A DNA stretch of 48,538 nucleotides, taken from the IMG/VR virus record IMGVR_UViG_2740892445_000002; one strand, 5' to 3'. The translations under genes were made by a program, and so were the position numbers. Below are positions 27,708 to 44,179 of the stretch, piece after piece. The stretch's first letter is position 1, and every line of letters starts with the position of its first letter. Source of the stretch: a virus (Duplodnaviria; Heunggongvirae; Uroviricota; Caudoviricetes). The notes under the pieces are model-generated. The model saw only the letters and a list, made by a program, of their open reading frames with translations, did no database searches and had not been told where the DNA came from.

Positions 27708-29642
27708 TTACGCGTTATTCACTTCCACCACAATGCTGTCAATCAGCACCGGGTATGTTGCACCATTAGTGATATCGGTCACACGCAACTTGTCTGCCGT
27801 AAAAATTCCGACAGTGGACTGCGACAGCATGAACGGCGTCCCGTCCTTACCATCAATGACCGGCGTCACCTCAATACTGTTGTTACCGGCGAAACGGAAG
27901 CCCAACGTATGCCATTCGTTATTAAATGCACCGAATGACCCCAGTTTCATGTTTTGCGCCGTATCGCCCTTGTGGTACATCACGTTAAGGTCTGTCGCAT
28001 CGCTCTGAACGTAAAAAGATGCCAGCAGGTTATGACCAGCATTACCTTCCAGGGTAACCCCTTGTGGCAGGGCAGAAACCGGCCAGTACAGCGCCAGTGC
28101 GTACTGATTAGCCGTAAGCGCGCCATCAAGTTTAAAACGACAACTGACAAGGCCGCCTTTGCCCAGCAGGTCGGCACCATTACCGGCATCATGTTCCAGG
28201 TACCAGGAGGATTTTCCCGTCGCTTTGGTAAGCTTCATCGCCTTACCTCCACTGGCTCCGGCATCATCCACAACAGCGGCACTACCTCCGCCAGCCCCCC
28301 AGCCCTGTGGAGTCAGTTGTCCTTCCGAATCGCTGGCCCTGTATGCAAACAGTGTTGTCATCCCGGTAGTTTCACCCGGTGATGTTGATGGAGTGTCAGG
28401 TGATGGCTTCTCATCCGGTGGTGTCACGGCCTGCCCGCCCAGCAGTTCAGCCGTGCGCCCTGCATGGAGCAGAATAGAGGAGGCCAGACGGTCAGAAATG
28501 ATGCCCCTGCGTGCCCATGAACTGAAATGGCTGTCACGCTGTGTCGAGACAAAACTGCCCTGGGTACGGGATGCCGCACCGTAATACCCGACAGCCACAA
28601 TATCCGGATCTTCCGTCGGAGCATTCGTTGGCGTGTTCTGTCCATTCTCATCCGTCAGGAACGGTACAAAGAAAATATTCTGAGTTTCCTTGCCTTTGTA
28701 GCCACCGTATACCGCCTCATATTTATCGGTGCCAGCGTTTTTCCAGTAATATGTCGTATCACCACAAATCCACGGCACCGTGCCAGCATTTCCACTCACA
28801 CACTGCACAGCAAGCGGAGACAGGTCAGTTCTGAACTGCTGAACCATGGTCGTGAATAAACCATTATGCTGCTGACTTCCCGATGCAAGGTCTGCTTCTC
28901 CCTGCATCCAGACCACTGCCAGAAGTTTGTTTTTCGGGTTCTTCGCCAGCGCCGCTCTGGTACGGCTTACCAGGTCCTGATACAGAGGTTTACCGACTCC
29001 CCAGCGTGAAGAATCAGCGGAAGCACCGCTGGCCTCACTGAATGAACCGTCCGGCCCGGTGGTGAATGCTGACCCGCCACGGCAACAGGGCACCAGAAGT
29101 ATCCCGGCATTCTGCGGGATATAAGGCAGCAGTTTTTTGGCAATATGCAGCCCCTGACTCACACAACCATACTGCCCCTTGTTCAGGTCAGCTTTTGGGT
29201 GGTTTATCCCGCTCATGTCCTGCACATCATGCAGGCAGTGGTCTGCCGGAATGATGTCATTGTATTTACACGGCGTACCACCTGGCGTGACCGTGCTGCG
29301 GCGTGCCAGTTGCTTAATCCGTGGATCCGGGCGGTCAAATGAATCCGGTAACGGAAGCCCTTCACCATAGGCCATGCCATTTGACTGCCCCGCCAGAACA
29401 ACAACAAAGTAATATTCTGGCTCACTGACTGTGCTCATTACCGTACCGCTGTCACCCGACGGCTTCACCACAACAGGCGTGGTGACATCACCCTCCGCTG
29501 CAATCGCCTGCATCAGGGTATAAGGCGTAATAGCAACCGGACTGCCAAACGGCTGCCAGCCTTCCTTCAGTTTTTGTGACAGTCGCTCCGCAAGCTCTGA
29601 CGGTGAAGCCGCCCTGACCACACCATAATGCTTAAATGTCAT
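27708..29642 (-). CDS. nanS-p: prophage sialate O-acetylesterase (NanS-p-like, SGNH hydrolase)
   Basis: Start set at Met35 behind GGGAGGAG Shine-Dalgarno; protein resembles the NanS-p esterases found downstream of stx in Stx phages. Confidence 0.8.
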   Translation of the reverse strand: MTFKHYGVVRAASPSELAERLSQKLKEGWQPFGSPVAITPYTLMQAIAAEGDVTTPVVVKPSGDSGTVMSTVSEPEYYFVVVLAGQSNGMAYGEGLPLPDSFDRPDPRIKQLARRSTVTPGGTPCKYNDIIPADHCLHDVQDMSGINHPKADLNKGQYGCVSQGLHIAKKLLPYIPQNAGILLVPCCRGGSAFTTGPDGSFSEASGASADSSRWGVGKPLYQDLVSRTRAALAKNPKNKLLAVVWMQGEADLASGSQQHNGLFTTMVQQFRTDLSPLAVQCVSGNAGTVPWICGDTTYYWKNAGTDKYEAVYGGYKGKETQNIFFVPFLTDENGQNTPTNAPTEDPDIVAVGYYGAASRTQGSFVSTQRDSHFSSWARRGIISDRLASSILLHAGRTAELLGGQAVTPPDEKPSPDTPSTSPGETTGMTTLFAYRASDSEGQLTPQGWGAGGGSAAVVDDAGASGGKAMKLTKATGKSSWYLEHDAGNGADLLGKGGLVSCRFKLDGALTANQYALALYWPVSALPQGVTLEGNAGHNLLASFYVQSDATDLNVMYHKGDTAQNMKLGSFGAFNNEWHTLGFRFAGNNSIEVTPVIDGKDGTPFMLSQSTVGIFTADKLRVTDITNGATYPVLIDSIVVEVNNA

Positions 29643-29814
29643 TGCTCCTCCCGGACGGGATAATGTGTTAACTAAGATGAGAGAGCAGGTGACAGCCCCG
29701 GCCGCATGAAAGTTCTGAGAGGGAAGTGCTGCCTGCTGCTCCATTGCACAGATTAATTACTGTCTGGTAGTATTCAGTGGCTGATTAGAATACTTCACAT
29801 TTTGTTATTTTGTG

Positions 29815-29846
29815 CAGCCCGTTACCATTCGTAGCGGGCTTTTTTT
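29815..29846 (+). terminator. plus-strand hairpin plus T-run upstream of nanS-p
   Basis: AGCCCG-ttaccattcgta-CGGGCT followed by TTTTTTT. Confidence 0.4.
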
Positions 29847-29851
29847 GTCCA

Positions 29852-29876
29852 TAAAAAAGCCCCTCCGGAGAGGGGC
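29852..29876 (-). terminator. intrinsic terminator after repeat unit 1
   Basis: Minus-strand GCCCCUC-UCCG-GAGGGGC followed by UUUUUUAU. Confidence 0.6.
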
Positions 29877-29898
29877 ATACTAGCTATATATCCATTTA

Positions 29899-30026
29899 TC
29901 ATTGGCTGCGTGGTGCCGGGTGCCTCCCGGTGAGCTCAGTCTGGTGTCACTGAGCCCGCACATTCTCGATCCAAGTTATCGTCGGAGATAATACCTGATA
30001 CACCAGACGCCCCTCCGCACAGGGGG
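29899..30026 (-). repeat. tRNA-like cloverleaf repeat unit 1 (candidate structured ncRNA)
   Basis: Conserved blocks GGTGCCGGGTGCCTCCCGGTG and CCCCTCCGCACAGGGGGATTCACCA; terminal stem CGTGGTG/CACCACG; variable interior. Confidence 0.5.
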
Positions 30027-30263
30027 ATTCACCACGCGCAGAGAAGGATACTGAACACTATTTTCTCCAGGCAATATGCAATAACATGAAGTGTGAGATG
30101 ACTTACAATTATAAAAAACAGCCTACAGAATACTCCTAAATAAAGCCATATCAAAATGAGTAACACAAAAAGGAACCAGGCAAAAATTTACGAGCAGGTA
30201 TTATCCAGCAACAGTTCAGACGCCATAACTTATTGCCGATAGCTACCATCAATAATTTCTTTC

Positions 30264-30289
30264 ATAAAAAAGCCCCTCTGAAGAGGGGC
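30264..30289 (-). terminator. intrinsic terminator after repeat unit 2
   Basis: Minus-strand GCCCCUC-UUCA-GAGGGGC followed by UUUUUUAU. Confidence 0.6.
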
Positions 30290-30316
30290 TGACATACGCA
30301 TTTGCTTTCATCATCA

Positions 30317-30439
30317 ATATGGCGCCGGGTGCCTCCCGGTGCTCCATAACTGATTAATATGGAACGCGGTTTCATTCAGTTGCATTCATGAATAACACTC
30401 TAATCAGTCCGCCCCGCCGCTTAGGGGGATTCGCCATAT
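30317..30439 (-). repeat. tRNA-like cloverleaf repeat unit 2 (candidate structured ncRNA)
   Basis: Same blocks with compensatory changes (GGCGCC... / ...GATTCGCCA); terminal stem ATATGGCG/CGCCATAT; interior closed by ACTGATTA/TAATCAGT. Confidence 0.5.
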
Positions 30440-30574
30440 AAATTGAAAGTACTGAACACATCTGTCACAAACAATATGCAATTGTATGAATTGTGAGATT
30501 ATTATCAATAACACAAAATTACAGCTCTAGTACATAAACAGCAGATTAAACAAGAACAACAAAAGTATTGAATT

Positions 30575-30697
30575 GCACGGTGCCGGGTGCCTCCCGGTGA
30601 ATTCTGCAATGACCAGACAGAATCCGCAACTTGCTACTAACGCTAATGCGACCAAGCCTCAGTCATTATGCCCCTCCGCACAGGGGGATTCACCATG
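30575..30697 (-). repeat. tRNA-like cloverleaf repeat unit 3 (candidate structured ncRNA)
   Basis: Same conserved blocks; terminal stem GCACGGTG/CACCATGC (one mismatch); interior closed by AATGAC/GTCATT. Confidence 0.5.
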
Positions 30698-30827
30698 CGC
30701 TAAAAAAATACAAAACGTCACGTCACTCTGACAATACGAAGCACCATAAAATGTGAGTTATTTATCAATTCTTAATTCTGGTTACAGGAATATTCCGAAT
30801 CAAATCTTTAAAAAAAGAAATTCAAAT

Positions 30828-30930
30828 GCATGGTGCCGGGTGCCTCCCGGTGAACAGACCGTCCGTGATACCAGTAGGCAACACAGGAAATTAATGGTAT
30901 CACCCCACCGCACAGGGGGATTCACCATGC
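30828..30930 (-). repeat. tRNA-like cloverleaf repeat unit 4 (candidate structured ncRNA)
   Basis: Same conserved blocks; terminal stem GCATGGTG/CACCATGC; interior closed by GTGATACCA/TGGTATCAC. Confidence 0.5.
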
Positions 30931-31320
30931 AGGCGTTTTCTTAGCAAACTAACTGCGCGCCCGGCAACTCCCAACCACATAAAACGTGGAGTTTGTAGCA
31001 TTTATGCACATAACTCACAGGGGTTATCTTAAAAAAAGCTGACCATGCTTCCCCGGCAACGCAATAACTTTATTCCCTGAAGTGGCATCCCCCGTATTGT
31101 CGGCAGGCTCAAAAAGGAGCCAGTCATCTGAGGATGACTGGAAAAAGGAAAGATAAAAAATTATTCATCATACAACCTTCGTTGCAGGGGAGAATCCTGC
31201 GGTGCAGCAACATACAAAAACATAAGCCAACTAACAATATGCAGGCATAGCATTTTCGGATTTTGTTATATGGCACGGTAACTGAATGCTTACCTGATAT
31301 ACAGTCCGGTATAAAGTTGC

Positions 31321-31342
31321 AAAAAACCGCCAGTTAAGGCGG
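31321..31342 (-). terminator. intrinsic terminator downstream of tRNA genes
   Basis: Minus-strand CCGCC-UUAACU-GGCGG followed by UUUUUU. Confidence 0.55.
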
Positions 31343-31582
31343 CATTCAAACAGACAACAGGATTTTTTCGTAATTTTAACAACTTCGGGGTGGCGCATCG
31401 TCAGCCCCTGTCAGGAAGTACCAGAACTCCCACCAACAATATCCCCCCATTCAGCGTTATCAAACACAGCACAGAAACTATCAATGTTTGCTGTTACAGT
31501 TAGGGAAAAAACGATAAATACGCCACAGGCTCTTTTTGCTGTGAAGTAAAAACTGATCTGAAAGACTGCTCATCATTTATTT

Positions 31583-31660
31583 TGCTGGACCGTCACCGGG
31601 GACTCGAACCCCGCATTTTCAACATAAAAAGGTTGATGCTCTTTCCTGATGAGCTAGTGA
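31583..31660 (-). tRNA. tRNA-like gene with 8-nt anticodon loop CUUUUUAU (Lys-UUU-like; possible variant or pseudogene)
   Basis: Acceptor stem CCGTCAC/GTGACGG, D arm GCTC-ATCAGGAAA-GAGC, T arm CGGGG-TTCGAGT-CCCCG, encoded CCA; anticodon loop one nt too long. Confidence 0.55.
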
Positions 31661-31662
31661 CG

Positions 31663-31737
31663 GCATGGTTGCCTTGCTGGATTTGAACCAGCGACCTGGC
31701 GATTATGAGTCTCTCGCTCTCACCACTGAGCTAAAGG
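31663..31737 (-). tRNA. tRNA-like gene with CAU anticodon (Met/Ile2-like), imperfect acceptor and anticodon stems; possible pseudogene
   Basis: D arm GCTC-AGTGGTGA-GAGC, anticodon loop CTCATAA, T arm GCTGG-TTCAAAT-CCAGC, CCA; only 4 of 7 acceptor pairs form by my reading. Confidence 0.45.
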
Positions 31738-31780
31738 GCCGGGAACAGAATAATAATGGTGCGTAATTAATTCTGCAATC

Positions 31781-32839
31781 TCATCCCTTCTGGCTGACTA
31801 AATCCTGAACTTCCCTGACCGTCTGCTCAAAACGCTCAGTCTCCAGCTCAACGCCAATCGCACGACGCCCCAGTGCCAGCGCCGCTTTGACTGTCGAACC
31901 CGACCCCATGAAGAAATCCGCAACCAGGTCACCCGGACGACTACTCGCTCTGATTATCTGCTGCAGCATTTCTGCCGGTTTTTCGCACGGATGTTTCCCG
32001 GGATAGAACTGCACCGGTTTATGCGTCCACACATCGGTATATGGCACCTGCGCCGTCACGCCAAAATACCGCCGCAGATGCTTATATTCACACTGCAGTT
32101 CCGCATACTGCCGGTTCAGTGAGGTATACGCGGCAACCAGCTGGTGGTGTGGCTTTTCCAGTTCACCGCACTGATGTTTCTCTTCTGCCACCCTGGCAAA
32201 CAGCGCCTGCAATTTCAGATAATCGCGTTCATTCGGTAACTGCCACTGACTGGTACTGAACCAGTGCGACACCATATTTTTCTTGCCCGTGGCCTCTGCA
32301 ATCTGTTTTGCCGTTATCCCCAGGGCTGCACGCGCATCACGAAAGTAAGAAATCAGCGGGGCCATCACATGCTGTTTCAGTTCCCTGCCCTTCGCACCAT
32401 AGCCATCATCTTTCGGAAGGTACGGCCCCTGATAATGTTCCGCAAACAGAATGCGCTCTGTGGCCGGGAAATACGCACGCAGGCTTTCCTTGTTGCACCC
32501 GTTCCAGCGTCCGGATGGCTTCGCCCAGATGATATGGTTCAGCACATTAAAGCGTTCACGCATCATGATTTCGATGTCGGATGCCAGGCGATGCCCACAG
32601 AACAGGTAAATGCTTCCCTCGGGCTTTAATACCCGCCAGAAGTGCGCCAGACACTGGTCCAGCCACTTCAGGTAATCATCATCGCCATTCCACTGGTTAT
32701 CCCAGCCATTGGGTTTTACTTTAAAGTACGGCGGGTCCGTGACTATCAGATCGACAGAGTTTTCAGGTAAGGTCTGGATAAATTCCAGGCAGTCAGCGTT
32801 GATTAACTCACAACTGGATATTTTTACAGTGTTAAGCAT
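31781..32839 (-). CDS. DNA N6-adenine methyltransferase (orphan, beta-class)
   Basis: 352 aa with DPPY motif (IVTDPPYFKV) followed later by FxGxG-like FFMGSGST; no adjacent restriction gene. Confidence 0.85.
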   Translation of the reverse strand: MLNTVKISSCELINADCLEFIQTLPENSVDLIVTDPPYFKVKPNGWDNQWNGDDDYLKWLDQCLAHFWRVLKPEGSIYLFCGHRLASDIEIMMRERFNVLNHIIWAKPSGRWNGCNKESLRAYFPATERILFAEHYQGPYLPKDDGYGAKGRELKQHVMAPLISYFRDARAALGITAKQIAEATGKKNMVSHWFSTSQWQLPNERDYLKLQALFARVAEEKHQCGELEKPHHQLVAAYTSLNRQYAELQCEYKHLRRYFGVTAQVPYTDVWTHKPVQFYPGKHPCEKPAEMLQQIIRASSRPGDLVADFFMGSGSTVKAALALGRRAIGVELETERFEQTVREVQDLVSQKG

Positions 32840-36107: not shown

Positions 36108-36263
36108 TTACTTCTCAGATTCGTAAGCTGTGAAGACAGCGACCTCCGTCTGGCCGGTTCGGATTCGTACCTCGCAGAGGTCTTTCCTCGTTACCAGTAC
36201 CGTTACAACGACGGTAATACAGATGACGATCAGGGCGATTAGCATCGCCTTTTGCTGCTTCAT
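36108..36263 (-). CDS. hokD: Hok-family type I toxin (HokD/RelF-like)
   Basis: 51 aa MKQQKAMLIALIVICITVVVTVLVTRKDLCEVRIRTGQTEVAVFTAYESEK, near-identical to my recollection of HokD. Confidence 0.9.
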   Translation of the reverse strand: MKQQKAMLIALIVICITVVVTVLVTRKDLCEVRIRTGQTEVAVFTAYESEK

Positions 36264-36440
36264 AGCCTGCTGCTCCTTGCCTTTCGGCGCGTAAGAGGCT
36301 AATCTAAGTGTGCAAGTCATAGATATGGCCTCAGATTAATGTTAAGCGTCCTGCAAGACGCATAATGTTAACTGGGGCTTTTCTCTGTCTGCCTTACGTC
36401 GGCATGCCCGAGGCAGACAGCCTCAAGCACCCGCAGCAAT
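36264..36440. promoter_or_regulatory. hok mRNA leader / mok start / antisense Sok region
   Basis: Minus-strand leader GGGUGCUUGAGGCUGUCUGCCUC... resembles hok mRNA 5' end; in-frame upstream start MTCTLRL... Confidence 0.45.
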
Positions 36441-43626: not shown

Positions 43627-43962
43627 TTTATCCTCCATTGAGGTTACTGGTTGAGAATGGAGACCTCTCGTGACAGCGTGTGGTCGTGCGCCGGACACGG
43701 ATAAGAATCCGACACTGACAGTTTACTGAAAGGATATATCCCTGAAAAGTCAGGGCATAACACGAAAGCGCACGGCGAGATTCCTTTGCATATAAGGCTT
43801 GTCGTTAAATTTCTTCAACCGCGCGTTTCCGGTTGTGGCAATCCGCGAAATAGCGCGGCGGTAAGTATGGCGGGGCTATTCCTTCCCCCGTTGAGGACAC
43901 CGGGTTGTCAGGTTGACCATACGCTTAAGTGACACCCCAGCCACAACAACCTCTGTTATCAC

Positions 43963-44002
43963 TTTTCTGGTGATTCGGCGGAAATGGATATCCGCTCTTT
44001 TT
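43963..44002 (+). ncRNA. dicF: DicF-like small RNA
   Basis: UUUCUGGUGA 5' seed then GGCGGA-AAUGGAUA-UCCGC hairpin and U-run; downstream TTTTTAAAGTGAATTTTGTGATG..GGTGAATGCGGC matches the dicF-dicB spacer as I recall it. Confidence 0.65.
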
Positions 44003-44179
44003 AAAGTGAATTTTGTGATGCGGTGAATGCGGCCATGCGCACGCAGAACAGTTAAAACAAGCGGTCTTTTACTCGCGTAACAGACATCAACTAACAATCC
44101 GGCGTTAATTGTTAACTGGTTAACGTCACCTGGAGGCACCAGGCACGGCATCACAAAATTCATTGTTGAGGACGCGATA

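What the first reader, a model, noticed from the sequence alone, without database searches (positions are those of the whole stretch)
29745..31560. Array of four covarying tRNA-like cloverleaf elements where Stx phages carry stxAB
About 1.8 kb with no credible ORF lies between the tRNA genes and nanS-p. It holds four copies (29899-30026, 30317-30439, 30575-30697, 30828-30930) of an element with an invariant 5' block GG(T/C)GCCGGGTGCCTCCCGGTG and 3' block CCCC(T/A)CCGCACAGGGGGATTCACCA. Each copy has a different 50-85 nt interior closed by its own inverted repeat, and a 7-8 bp terminal stem whose strands change in a compensatory way between copies (CGTGGTG/CACCACG, ATATGGCG/CGCCATAT, CATGGTG/CACCATG). 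On the minus strand, which carries the tRNAs and late operon, the order is terminal stem, short linker, 4-5 bp hairpin with a GG-containing loop, long variable arm, then hairpin CCGGG-AGGCA-CCCGG abutting the 3' strand of the terminal stem. That is a tRNA-like topology without a canonical anticodon or T loop. Copies 1 and 2 are each followed by an intrinsic terminator, and spacers share AT-rich motifs (ACTGAACAC, CAATATGCAAT, AACACAAAA). I do not recognise this as a described family; tRNA-mimic RNAs, processing punctuation or mRNA-mimic sponge RNAs are hypotheses only.
Basis: partly seen in the sequence, partly recalled or inferred. Interest (0 to 1): 0.85.

Follow-up and report, generated by a model that had tools for sequence, protein, structure and literature searches.

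The report
Four tandem STnc100 prophage small RNAs
The gene-free 1.8 kb holds four diverged copies of an already catalogued prophage small-RNA family (Rfam STnc100, which includes the Hfq-binding EcOnc27/sRNA103 found just after the Shiga-toxin genes); the RNA array is real and well folded, but it is not a new kind of element and no test run here shows it to be a tRNA mimic.

Summary
Four units lie on the minus strand. Each has an 8-bp closing stem (P1), a conserved first hairpin (H1), a different 48-75 nt interior, and a conserved last hairpin CCGGG-AGGCA-CCCGG (H-last) abutting P1.

The claim of an undescribed family fails. All four score 77-133 bits against Rfam RF02076 STnc100 (threshold 47). 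Published work shows family members are transcribed and Hfq-bound, and that they sit in this same slot between the Q antiterminator/tRNAs and the esterase and lysis genes. Copy 1 is 86% identical to the unit 75 nt after stx2B in an Stx2 phage.

ARAGORN and the Rfam tRNA model find nothing tRNA-like in the cores.

Across 239 homologues from Enterobacterales prophages, P1 covaries at 7 of 8 pairs. H1 fits a bulged register (99.4% paired) better than Rfam's (78.8%). Interiors are very diverse.

Arrays of three or more cores recur elsewhere. Some are dense, with one terminator. A few cores sit 4-6 nt upstream of real tRNA genes.

A fifth, sub-threshold core lies at 44014-44153 (+).

Most likely function: Hfq-dependent base-pairing sRNAs built on a conserved structured scaffold. 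What the scaffold does is unknown.

The parts
29847..30067 (-). STnc100 unit 1. Core P1-to-P1 is 29908-30037, the tail is 29877-29907, and the terminator is 29859-29876. It corresponds to the EcOnc27/sRNA103-type unit that follows stx2B.
   Evidence: Rfam RF02076 132.9 bits. Terminator. Core 86% identical to the Stx2-phage unit L242 4383-4511.
30260..30465 (-). STnc100 unit 2. Core is 30317-30439 and the terminator is 30271-30290. Its interior has no relative in the sample. Its tail resembles the Stx2-phage unit's tail.
   Evidence: Rfam 99.6 bits. Own model R1 124.8 bits. MFE z-score -3.25. Best interior identity to any other unit 0.57. Tail identity 0.68.
30481..30508 (-). Sigma-70-like promoter of unit 2 (TTGATA-16-TACAAT, 10 of 12). 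The homologous site of unit 1 (30081-30108) is weaker (TTGTAA-16-TGTTAT). The sites of units 3 and 4 are degenerate.
   Evidence: Alignment of the four units, columns 28-56.
30530..30727 (-). STnc100 unit 3. Core is 30574-30698. It has no terminator, so it probably reads through into unit 2.
   Evidence: Rfam 101.5 bits, with the terminator positions of the model deleted. R1 123.2 bits. Relatives with 83% identity, e.g. L006 and L115.
30705..30734 (-). Promoter-like site TTGTCA-18-TATTTT. It would start transcription at the first base of unit 3's closing stem, the position at which PasD1 is reported to start.
   Evidence: PasD1's estimated start is at P1 (PMC8550237 table S6; sequence). This is a consensus match only.
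30782..30960 (-). STnc100 unit 4. Core is 30828-30930, the shortest interior at 48 nt. It has no terminator and no convincing promoter of its own.
   Evidence: Rfam 77 bits. R1 105.9 bits. Whole-core identity 87% to L109 and L166 (E. coli E69), interior identity 0.76-0.80.
31586..31741 (-). Two real phage tRNA genes upstream of the array on the same strand. tRNA-Ile(CAU) is at 31667-31741. tRNA-Lys is at 31586-31663 and has an 8-nt anticodon loop.
   Evidence: ARAGORN. Rfam tRNA 47.6 and 47.3 bits. RefSeq annotation.
29789..29847 (+). Candidate short convergent sRNA on the opposite strand: a -10-like TAGAAT at 29786-29791, about 50 nt of RNA, and a terminator at 29816-29840 followed by T7. It occupies the position that AsxR/AgvB hold in EHEC sRNA dyads, but it is not a member of those families.
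   Evidence: Plus-strand terminator. Only a weak RybB-like match of 21 bits, and no AgvB/AsxR match at E<=10. Present in 27 of 5426 E. coli genomes.
44014..44153 (+). Fifth, diverged STnc100-like core in the early-left operon, between dicB/DUF1482 and the exonuclease gene. It has a 12-bp closing stem with one mismatch, a GCGGC-CAUGC-GC(A)CGC first hairpin, and a compensatory CCUGG-AGGCA-CCAGG last hairpin.
   Evidence: R1 24.8 bits, E 9e-4 with filters off. Rfam STnc100 22 bits, below the threshold of 47. Context. Found through a 27-30 nt interior match to L020 and L083.

Best explanation
The region is a tandem cluster of four diverged genes of the known prophage sRNA family STnc100 (Rfam RF02076; the same family as EcOnc27/sRNA103, and related to PasD1/PasD2). 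All four are transcribed in the direction of the late operon.

Each RNA has a conserved structured scaffold:
- an 8-bp closing stem P1;
- a first hairpin H1 with a one-base bulge and a U-N-N-G-C loop;
- one to three variable hairpins;
- an invariant hairpin CCGGG-AGGCA-CCCGG stacked on P1.

In units 1 and 2 the scaffold is followed by an A/U-rich single-stranded tail and an intrinsic terminator with a U run.

By homology, these are Hfq-dependent trans-acting sRNAs that pair with host and prophage mRNAs through single-stranded segments. In PasD1 that segment is the tail just before the terminator.

The four units differ in interior, leader and tail, so they would have different target sets. Units 1 and 2 look like self-contained genes. 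Units 3 and 4 lack terminators and probably form multi-core transcripts ending at unit 2's terminator. After prophage induction, Q-modified polymerase would transcribe the whole array as part of the late transcript.

Shown: family membership, structure, covariation, genomic position, the terminators, and purifying selection on the cores. Inferred from homologues: transcription, Hfq binding and base-pairing. Unknown: what the conserved scaffold does. Confidence that these are STnc100 family members is about 0.97; the 0.6 given is for the whole statement including the mechanism.
For: Membership:
- Rfam scores are 77-133 bits against a threshold of 47.
- Unit 1 is 86% identical to the unit 75 nt after stx2B.

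Structure:
- P1 is 97.5% paired, with compensatory changes at 7 of 8 pairs in 95 distinct sequences. The covariation score is 0.306 against 0.136 in shuffles and at most 0.111 in slid controls.
- G.U pairs would be A.C mismatches on the other strand, so the structure is in minus-strand RNA.
- The bulged H1 register is 99.4% paired, with three covarying pairs.

Selection: in an orthologous array the cores carry 4 substitutions in 482 nt, against 43 in 1461 nt in the rest of the non-coding region (Fisher p=0.006).

Gene features:
- Terminators with U runs follow units 1 and 2, and there is a 10-of-12 promoter before unit 2.
- 99 of 199 homologues have a terminator within 120 nt of the core.

Literature:
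- EDL933 has 11 STnc100 copies that are transcribed, one confirmed by northern blot (PMC5331693).
- EcOnc27/sRNA103 is Hfq-crosslinked and lies in the same 'moron' slot as part of a convergent sRNA dyad (PMC4104026, PMC7873438, PMC12711010).
- PasD1/2 are Hfq-stabilised, have RIL-seq targets, and carry a UGUGAG seed (PMC8550237).
- I located that seed in the tail between a degenerate STnc100 core and the terminator.
- PasD is related to STnc100 (bioRxiv 10.64898/2026.05.13.724894).
Against: - No expression, Hfq-binding or target data exist for these four units or this prophage.
- Units 3 and 4 lack terminators, which Hfq-class sRNAs normally need.
- Strict sigma-70 sites upstream of homologues are no more frequent than in shuffled sequence (19 against 21 of 199). 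Many units may therefore arise by processing rather than as independent genes.
- The most conserved parts, the H1 and H-last loops, are not explained by a seed-pairing model.
- PasD1 works as an Hfq sRNA even though H-last is deleted. The scaffold may therefore serve another, unknown function.
- In dense arrays elsewhere, four cores share one terminator.
- The published targets of EcOnc27 (fimZ, espA) are indirect or in silico only (PMC7873438).
Confidence: 0.6

Rival explanations
1. The conserved core is an autonomous structured RNA module whose function depends on its fold rather than on seed pairing. It might bind or titrate a conserved host factor such as a ribonuclease, an RNA chaperone or the 30S subunit. 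It would be released by processing from multi-core or core-tRNA precursors. Any base-pairing activity would be a secondary property of the tails.
For: - The 18-nt H-last segment is identical in prophages from Escherichia to Pantoea, Erwinia and Rahnella, while the interiors fall into 83 clusters. The sample was selected by that 18-mer.
- H1 keeps its bulge and its UNNGC loop through stem covariation.
- Dense arrays exist with 7-24 nt AU-rich spacers, a different P1 in each core and a single terminator: L035, L034 and L175.
- Some cores lie 4-6 nt upstream of tRNA-Met or tRNA-Arg genes: L066-L068.
- A fifth core lies inside the early-left operon, with no terminator called nearby.
- Some EDL933 copies carry substantial ribosome footprints (PMC5331693).
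Against: - No partner has been identified.
- Direct tRNA adjacency is rare (4 of 239).
- PasD1 has lost H-last yet is abundant and Hfq-dependent.
- H-last invariance is partly an artefact of searching with that exact pattern.
Confidence: 0.2
2. The units are cis-acting elements of the late or 'moron' transcripts. They would act as 3' stabilisers or processing punctuation that protect or separate upstream RNAs (stx mRNA, tRNAs) and have no function in trans.
For: - The position is immediately 3' of stx2B in Stx phages and downstream of tRNAs on the same strand in 68 of 239 cases within 1.5 kb.
- There is little general promoter signal.
- The fold is GC-rich and closed by a stem.
Against: - Here there is no upstream CDS to stabilise, and four copies in a row are unnecessary for that role.
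- Unit 2 has a strong promoter of its own.
- Homologues accumulate as discrete Hfq-bound sRNAs with trans targets (PMC4104026, PMC8550237).
Confidence: 0.1
3. True tRNA mimicry. The cores would fold into an L-shape recognised by tRNA enzymes such as RNase P, the CCA-adding enzyme, synthetases or anticodon nucleases, and would act as decoys.
For: - H-last stacks directly on P1 (8+5 bp, compared with 7+5 in tRNA), and H1 occupies the D-arm position.
- The H1 loop (..UGC) and the H-last loop (..GCA) could form 2-3 base pairs. This comes from inspection.
- The cores are co-located with phage tRNA genes and are occasionally fused to them.
Against: - ARAGORN and the Rfam tRNA-clan models find nothing, even at E<=10.
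- The last loop has 5 nt and no T-loop U...A signature.
- There is no anticodon arm, no discriminator-CCA, and variable numbers of interior hairpins.
- The proposed loop-loop pair is not supported by covariation. H1 loop position 3 varies U/A/G/C while H-last stays fixed.
Confidence: 0.05
4. A DNA-level repeat, such as a miniature mobile element, a recombination site or a cruciform, rather than an RNA.
For: - The units have terminal inverted repeats and are multicopy, with up to 13 places per genome.
- Copy number changes by recombination between the conserved blocks: strain A39 has three copies.
Against: - The stem sequences covary instead of being conserved.
- G.U pairs are strand-specific.
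- Orientation always follows the local transcription direction, and many units carry terminators.
- Family members are detected as RNAs (PMC5331693).
Confidence: 0.03

Closest known systems
STnc100 (Rfam RF02076), which includes EcOnc27/sRNA103 downstream of stx2B and STnc100_1 to _11 of E. coli O157:H7 EDL933
   Same: - The conserved blocks, closing stem, terminal hairpin and terminator are the same.
- The slot is the same: between Q/tRNAs and the esterase-holin genes, on the late-operon strand.
- Unit 1 is 86% identical to the Stx2-phage unit.
   Different: - There are four units in tandem within 1.1 kb, in an stx-negative prophage of mostly mouse-associated E. coli. The full array occurs in 17 of 5426 complete genomes.
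- Two units lack terminators.
- The interiors are mutually unrelated.
- Covariation favours a bulged H1 rather than the Rfam consensus pairing.
PasD1/PasD2 of EPEC E2348/69 (EcOnc13 in EHEC)
   Same: - They are prophage late-region sRNAs related to STnc100.
- They share the closing stem, the H1 position and the penultimate hairpin, followed by a tail and terminator.
- Hfq dependence and RIL-seq targets have been shown for them.
   Different: - PasD1 has lost the CCGGG-AGGCA-CCCGG hairpin and has a UUGG-loop H1.
- It scores only 37.9 bits with my model.
- The window cores are 57-66% identical to it, so they are STnc100 proper and not PasD variants.
Convergent sRNA dyads at the PR' moron site (EcOnc27/AsxR, EcOnc06/AgvB; Tree et al. 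2014)
   Same: An STnc100-type sRNA on the late strand faces a short, terminator-ended element on the other strand (29789-29847). Both lie just upstream of the conserved esterase ORF.
   Different: - The opposite-strand element does not match the AsxR or AgvB models and is unverified.
- The late-strand partner is expanded to four copies.
Tandem sibling sRNAs (e.g. PrrF1/PrrF2, Qrr1-5)
   Same: Several related sRNA genes sit side by side, with the possibility of both individual and read-through transcripts.
   Different: Sibling sRNAs keep the seed and vary elsewhere. Here the scaffold is kept, and the candidate pairing regions (interior, leader, tail) all differ.
tRNA genes and tRNA-like structures
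   Same: - The fold is a multi-branch structure closed by a terminal stem, with the last hairpin stacked on it.
- The units are neighbours of phage tRNA genes.
   Different: They fail every tRNA detector. There is no T loop, no anticodon arm and no CCA end, and the number of arms varies.

Membership tests
Rfam RF02076 STnc100 | Covariance-model score at or above the curated gathering threshold (47 bits) | tested here: met
   132.9, 101.5, 99.6 and 77.0 bits, all full-length matches to model positions 1-206. The fifth core at 44014-44153 scores 22 bits, which is not met.
Rfam RF02076 STnc100 | An 8-bp closing stem enclosing a multiloop, with the CCGGG-AGGCA-CCCGG hairpin abutting its 3' strand | tested here: met
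   MFE folds of the three complete cores show it; the copy 1 query was cut at the 5' end and formed a shorter closing stem. Across 95 distinct homologues, 7 of 8 P1 pairs covary and H-last is 99.8% paired.
Rfam RF02076 STnc100 | First hairpin paired as in the Rfam consensus (CCCCU/AGGGG) | tested here: inconclusive
   The hairpin is present, but the Rfam register is only 78.8% paired. A register with a one-base bulge and a 5-nt UNNGC loop is 99.4% paired, with three covarying pairs.
Rfam RF02076 STnc100 | 3' intrinsic terminator (model positions about 172-206) | tested here: inconclusive
   Met for units 1 and 2. Units 3 and 4 have these positions deleted or unpaired.
Rfam RF02076 STnc100 | Expressed as a discrete, Hfq-associated small RNA | not testable with these tools
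   Shown only for homologues (PMC5331693, PMC4104026, PMC8550237).
tRNA / tRNA-like RNA | Recognised by tRNA gene finders or tRNA-clan covariance models | tested here: not met
   ARAGORN finds only the genes at 31586-31663 and 31667-31741. No tRNA-clan match in the cores at E<=1 over the region or at E<=10 on a single core.
tRNA / tRNA-like RNA | Seven-nt T loop, anticodon arm, and a discriminator plus CCA (or a processable 3' end) after the acceptor stem | tested here: not met
   The last loop is the 5-nt AGGCA. The interior holds 1-3 variable hairpins. P1 is followed by a 26-46 nt tail that does not begin with a discriminator-CCA end.
tRNA / tRNA-like RNA | Substrate of RNase P, the CCA-adding enzyme or a synthetase | not testable with these tools
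   Needs in vitro assays.
AsxR (RF02703) / AgvB (RF02702) anti-sRNAs, tested for the plus-strand element 29789-29847 | Match to the family covariance model | tested here: not met
   No match at E<=10 on 29700-29900. The best hit is a generic RybB-like match of 21 bits.
PasD sRNAs | Close sequence similarity to PasD1/PasD2, including the UGUGAG seed tail | tested here: not met
   Core identity to PasD1 is 57-66%, and the tails are unrelated.
Type III toxin-antitoxin RNA arrays (ToxI-like) | Near-identical short tandem repeats followed by a terminator and a toxin endoribonuclease gene | tested here: not met
   The units are 103-130 nt with unrelated interiors and 130-280 nt spacers. The downstream gene is an esterase.

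The most novel reading that the evidence does not exclude
The STnc100 core is a widespread, self-contained structured RNA module of Enterobacterales prophages. Its function lies in its conserved fold: the closing stem, the bulged UNNGC hairpin and the invariant AGGCA hairpin. That fold might make it a decoy or a handle for a conserved host factor. The module would be produced by processing from multi-core and core-tRNA precursors. On this reading the catalogued 'sRNA' is only one packaging of the module. The window's four-unit array plus the fifth early-operon copy would be a way to deliver several variants at once.
Probability: 0.2. Interest if true: 0.6.

Novelty: new member of a known kind. 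Interest (0 to 1): 0.3.

Why it matters
This is mainly a correction. The striking repeat array is explained by a catalogued family, so it should not be pursued as a new RNA class or as a tRNA mimic.

Some open questions remain.
- The family's conserved scaffold has no known function, and reviews state that the reason for sRNA clusters at this prophage slot is unclear (PMC7873438).
- Sequence variants in the stx2-linked member were among the best predictors of haemolytic uraemic syndrome in one machine-learning study (PMC12711010).
The first hairpin is bulged. Cores occur in dense single-terminator arrays and fused to tRNA genes. A diverged subtype escapes the Rfam model.
- RefSeq annotation shows nothing in this region, so these RNAs are invisible to users of standard annotation.

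Tried and rejected
1. tRNA-likeness. ARAGORN and the Rfam tRNA clan were negative at relaxed thresholds.

2. General physical linkage of cores to tRNA genes. Only 4 of 239 cores have a tRNA within 30 nt downstream, all in one related group. tRNAs 31-1500 nt upstream are common (67 of 239; 68 within 1500 nt counting one at 30 nt), which reflects the shared slot.

3. Independent sigma-70 promoters as a family feature. A strict scan found sites upstream of 19 of 199 units, against 21 in shuffled controls.

4. Interiors as antisense 'spacers' against other prophage or host sequence. blastn-short of 174 interiors against about 2 Mb of fetched loci hit only other STnc100 units, apart from a few 17-24 nt matches I did not check. 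That search did reveal the fifth window core.

5. The plus-strand element as AsxR or AgvB. No model match, and it is confined to 27 genomes.

6. Type-B cores as a fixed partner of the early exonuclease gene. Only L020 shares that context (my CDS coordinates in that script were one base off, which weakens the test).

7. A loop-loop (H1 to H-last) tertiary pair. Not supported by covariation.

8. The first fold of copy 1 was cut 5 nt short at the 5' end, so its z-score of -0.74 should be ignored.
Full report
**What is there**

Reading 29300-31900 and the repeat finder confirm four copies of a composite element. The plus-strand 5' block is (A/G)TGG(T/C)GCCGGGTGCCTCCCGGTG (family D4, 91-100% identity). 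The 3' block is CCCC(T/A/G)CCGC(AC/TT)AGGGGGATTC(A/G)CCA (family D1, 71-97%).

On the minus strand each unit reads as follows:
- an 8-bp closing stem (P1);
- an AAU linker;
- a small GC hairpin (H1);
- 48-75 nt of unit-specific sequence forming one to three hairpins;
- CA;
- CCGGG-AGGCA-CCCGG (H-last), directly abutting the 3' strand of P1.

The MFE folds of copies 2-4 give this architecture, with z-scores of -2.0 to -3.3. My copy 1 query was cut short.

P1-to-P1 core coordinates are 29908-30037, 30317-30439, 30574-30698 and 30828-30930.

Terminators follow copies 1 and 2 only, at 29876-29859 and 30290-30271 on the minus strand.

**It is a described family**

cmscan against Rfam 15 gives four full-length hits to RF02076 'STnc100' on the minus strand:

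| Unit | Coordinates | Bits |
|---|---|---|
| 1 | 29847-30067 | 132.9 |
| 2 | 30260-30465 | 99.6 |
| 3 | 30530-30727 | 101.5 |
| 4 | 30782-30960 | 77.0 |

The gathering score is 47.

The literature held here says the following:
- EDL933 has 11 STnc100 copies. They are transcribed, and one was confirmed by northern blot (PMC5331693).
- The Hfq-crosslinked sRNA EcOnc27 (sRNA103) lies immediately 3' of stx2B and overlaps the STnc100 prediction (PMC12711010).
- It is one half of a 'dyad' of convergent sRNAs found between PR' and the lysis genes in at least eight Sakai prophages (PMC4104026, PMC7873438).
- STnc100 RNA is found in vesicles of STEC (PMC12370729).
- PasD1/PasD2 of EPEC are Hfq-stabilised and have RIL-seq targets (PMC8550237).
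- PasD1/PasD2 are structural relatives of STnc100 (bioRxiv 10.64898/2026.05.13.724894).
- None of the papers that mention STnc100 in the searchable library describes tandem arrays or a tRNA-like fold.

**Context**

The window is a lambdoid prophage of E. coli, 99.9% identical to strains M18 and CI5.
- The full array is present in 17 of 5426 complete genomes, mostly mouse isolates.
- 3402 genomes match some part of the region.
- RefSeq annotates only tRNA-Lys and tRNA-Ile there.

The gene order on the minus strand is: antiterminator Q, a hypothetical gene, a DNA methyltransferase, tRNA-Ile, tRNA-Lys, the array, an esterase (DUF6645/SASA), DUF1378, DUF826, holin, lysozyme.

An Stx2 phage has: Q, ileZ-argN-argO, stx2A, stx2B, one STnc100 (158.5 bits, starting 75 nt after stx2B), esterase, DUF1378, DUF826, holin.

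Unit 1 is the counterpart of that Stx-phage unit, with 86% core identity and a homologous upstream region. The other three units, plus about 620 nt, occupy the stxAB position.

**Structure tested on homologues**

The genuine hosts are Enterobacterales: Escherichia, Salmonella, Citrobacter, Enterobacter, Klebsiella, Leclercia, Cedecea, Kluyvera, Pantoea, Erwinia, Mixta and Rahnella. Six high-GC non-enterobacterial matches were chance, because my model found nothing in them.

A covariance model of P1+H1+H-last built from the four window copies (R1) found 239 cores in 192 loci.

On the first set of 95 distinct sequences:
- P1 is 97.5% paired, with compensatory changes at 7 of 8 pairs.
- The covariation score is 0.306, against 0.136 +/- 0.007 in shuffles and at most 0.111 when partners are slid.
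- Frequent U.G and G.U pairs place the structure on the transcribed strand.

Two caveats apply. The alignment was fitted to the model, and the sample was selected through H-last, so the invariance of H-last is partly built in.

For H1, the Rfam pairing (CCCCU/AGGGG) is only 78.8% paired. A register of U.G, three pairs, a one-base bulge (A/U/C), two pairs and a U-N-N-G-C pentaloop is 99.4% paired with three covarying pairs. Examples are CCCCC...GG(A)GGG changing to CCAGC...GC(A)UGG and to GCGGC...GC(A)CGC.

A hairpin ending next to H-last is present in most units, with unit-specific sequence.

**The interiors**

The four window interiors are 41-54% identical to each other. That is the level of unrelated sequence, so the array is not a recent duplication.

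In the sample, 174 distinct interiors fall into 83 clusters at 70% identity.
- Unit 3 has relatives at 83% interior identity.
- Unit 4 has relatives at 76-80%, including E. coli E69.
- Unit 2 has none.
- Unit 2's tail resembles the Stx-phage unit's tail, while unit 1's interior does. This points to mosaic exchange at the conserved blocks.

Strain A39 carries three units, because of a deletion running from inside core 2 to inside core 3.

In an orthologous array that is 96.9% identical, the cores carry 4 substitutions in 482 nt, against 43 in 1461 nt for the rest of the non-coding region (p=0.006). The cores, interiors included, are therefore under constraint.

**Transcription units (inferred)**

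- Unit 2 has a strong sigma-70-like site (TTGATA-16-TACAAT, 30508-30481).
- The homologous site of unit 1 is weaker.
- The homologous sites of units 3 and 4 are degenerate.
- Unit 3 has another candidate (TTGTCA-18-TATTTT, 30734-30705) that would start the RNA at P1. PasD1 is reported to start at that position.

Units 3 and 4 lack terminators. The likely products are therefore unit 1 alone, unit 2 alone, and 3-2 or 4-3-2 read-through RNAs. After induction the whole array would lie within the Q-antiterminated late transcript.

Family-wide, strict promoter matches are no commoner than in shuffled sequence (19 against 21 of 199). Half the units have a terminator 10-40 nt after the core.

**Where the pairing region probably is**

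I located PasD1 in E2348/69. It consists of:
- a degenerate core, in which P1 is kept, H1 has a UUGG loop and H-last is deleted (R1 37.9 bits);
- a 45-nt single-stranded tail carrying the published UGUGAG seed;
- the terminator.

By analogy, the tails of units 1 and 2 (29877-29907 and 30291-30316) are the best seed candidates. The conserved core is then a 5' structured domain of unknown role.

**Is it tRNA-like?**

The defining tRNA features were tested and not met:
- no ARAGORN call;
- no tRNA-clan match at E<=10;
- a 5-nt last loop;
- no anticodon arm;
- no CCA end.

Two observations keep a weaker 'processed like a tRNA' idea alive.

First, dense arrays exist. In L035, four cores are separated by 8-24 nt AU-rich spacers, each has a different P1, there is one promoter-like site upstream and one terminator, and none lies between the cores. 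L034 and Pantoea rodasii L175 are similar.

Second, in the L066-L068 group, cores end 4-6 nt before tRNA-Met or tRNA-Arg genes. That adjacency is rare (4 of 239).

**Verdict**

It is not supported on the 'undescribed family' claim or on tRNA mimicry.

The best explanation is a cluster of four diverged STnc100-family, Hfq-type sRNA genes. Identity is about 0.97 certain; the mechanism is about 0.6. The main rival is a scaffold-dependent function of the core (about 0.2).

Novelty: new members of a known family, in an uncommon but not unique tandem arrangement.

Noticed in passing
window 44014-44153 (+): A fifth, diverged STnc100-like core lies in the early-left operon between dicB/DUF1482 and the exonuclease gene. 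It is missed by Rfam (22 bits against a threshold of 47). Its last hairpin has a compensatory change (CCUGG/CCAGG), and its first hairpin is the 'type-B' GCGGC...GC(A)CGC form. It overlaps the 3' end of the annotated DUF1482 CDS (43885-44076).
   Followed up: partly
window 29789-29847 (+): A candidate sRNA of about 50 nt converges on unit 1. It has a -10-like TAGAAT and the terminator AGCCCGTTACCATTCGTAGCGGGCT followed by T7. It sits where AsxR/AgvB sit in EHEC dyads but matches neither model, and it occurs in only 27 of 5426 genomes. Its 5' motif TTCACATTTTGTTAT recurs at 31255-31269.
   Followed up: partly
window 31586-31663 (-): The phage tRNA annotated as tRNA-Lys has an 8-nt anticodon loop (CUUUUUAU). 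ARAGORN reports a four-base anticodon UUUU. The same gene is present in strain A39 (L243). It could be a quadruplet-reading or frameshift-prone tRNA.
   Followed up: no
window 30960-31585: About 620 nt lie between tRNA-Lys and unit 4 with no Rfam hit. The stretch has two minus-strand terminator-like sites (31141-31120 and 31343-31326) and a copy of the unit-promoter motif (ACTAACAATATGCA, 31230-31243). It may hold one or two further small transcripts. It is the least conserved part of the region (4.4% divergence against L245).
   Followed up: no
L035 4142-4661 (-); L034 1954-2316 (+); L175 12403-12772 (+): These are dense arrays of three or four STnc100 cores separated by 7-24 nt AU-rich spacers. 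Each core has a different closing stem. There is a single terminator at the end and one promoter-like site upstream, which suggests a multi-core precursor.
   Followed up: partly
L067 2148-2274 and 2708-2830 (-); L066 1534-1660 and 2415-2538 (+); L068 4185-4320 (-): These STnc100 cores end 4-6 nt before genuine tRNA-Met or tRNA-Arg genes on the same strand. The tRNA replaces the usual tail and terminator.
   Followed up: partly
L243 (E. coli A39) 1604-2458, compared with window 30317-30698: This three-unit variant of the array was created by a deletion running from inside core 2 to inside core 3, that is, by recombination between the conserved blocks. Copy number is therefore unstable.
   Followed up: yes
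Rfam RF02076 consensus, first hairpin (alignment A6): The curated consensus pairing of the first hairpin fits homologues poorly (78.8% paired). A register with a one-base bulge and a UNNGC pentaloop fits 99.4% and covaries.
   Followed up: yes
window 36258-36432 (-): There is a sok antitoxin RNA hit (114.8 bits) next to an annotated hokD toxin gene, so the same prophage carries a type I toxin-antitoxin locus.
   Followed up: no
L170 1252-1350; L200 3719-3816: In Leclercia prophages, isrI (RF01392) sRNA hits lie interleaved with the STnc100 arrays.
   Followed up: no
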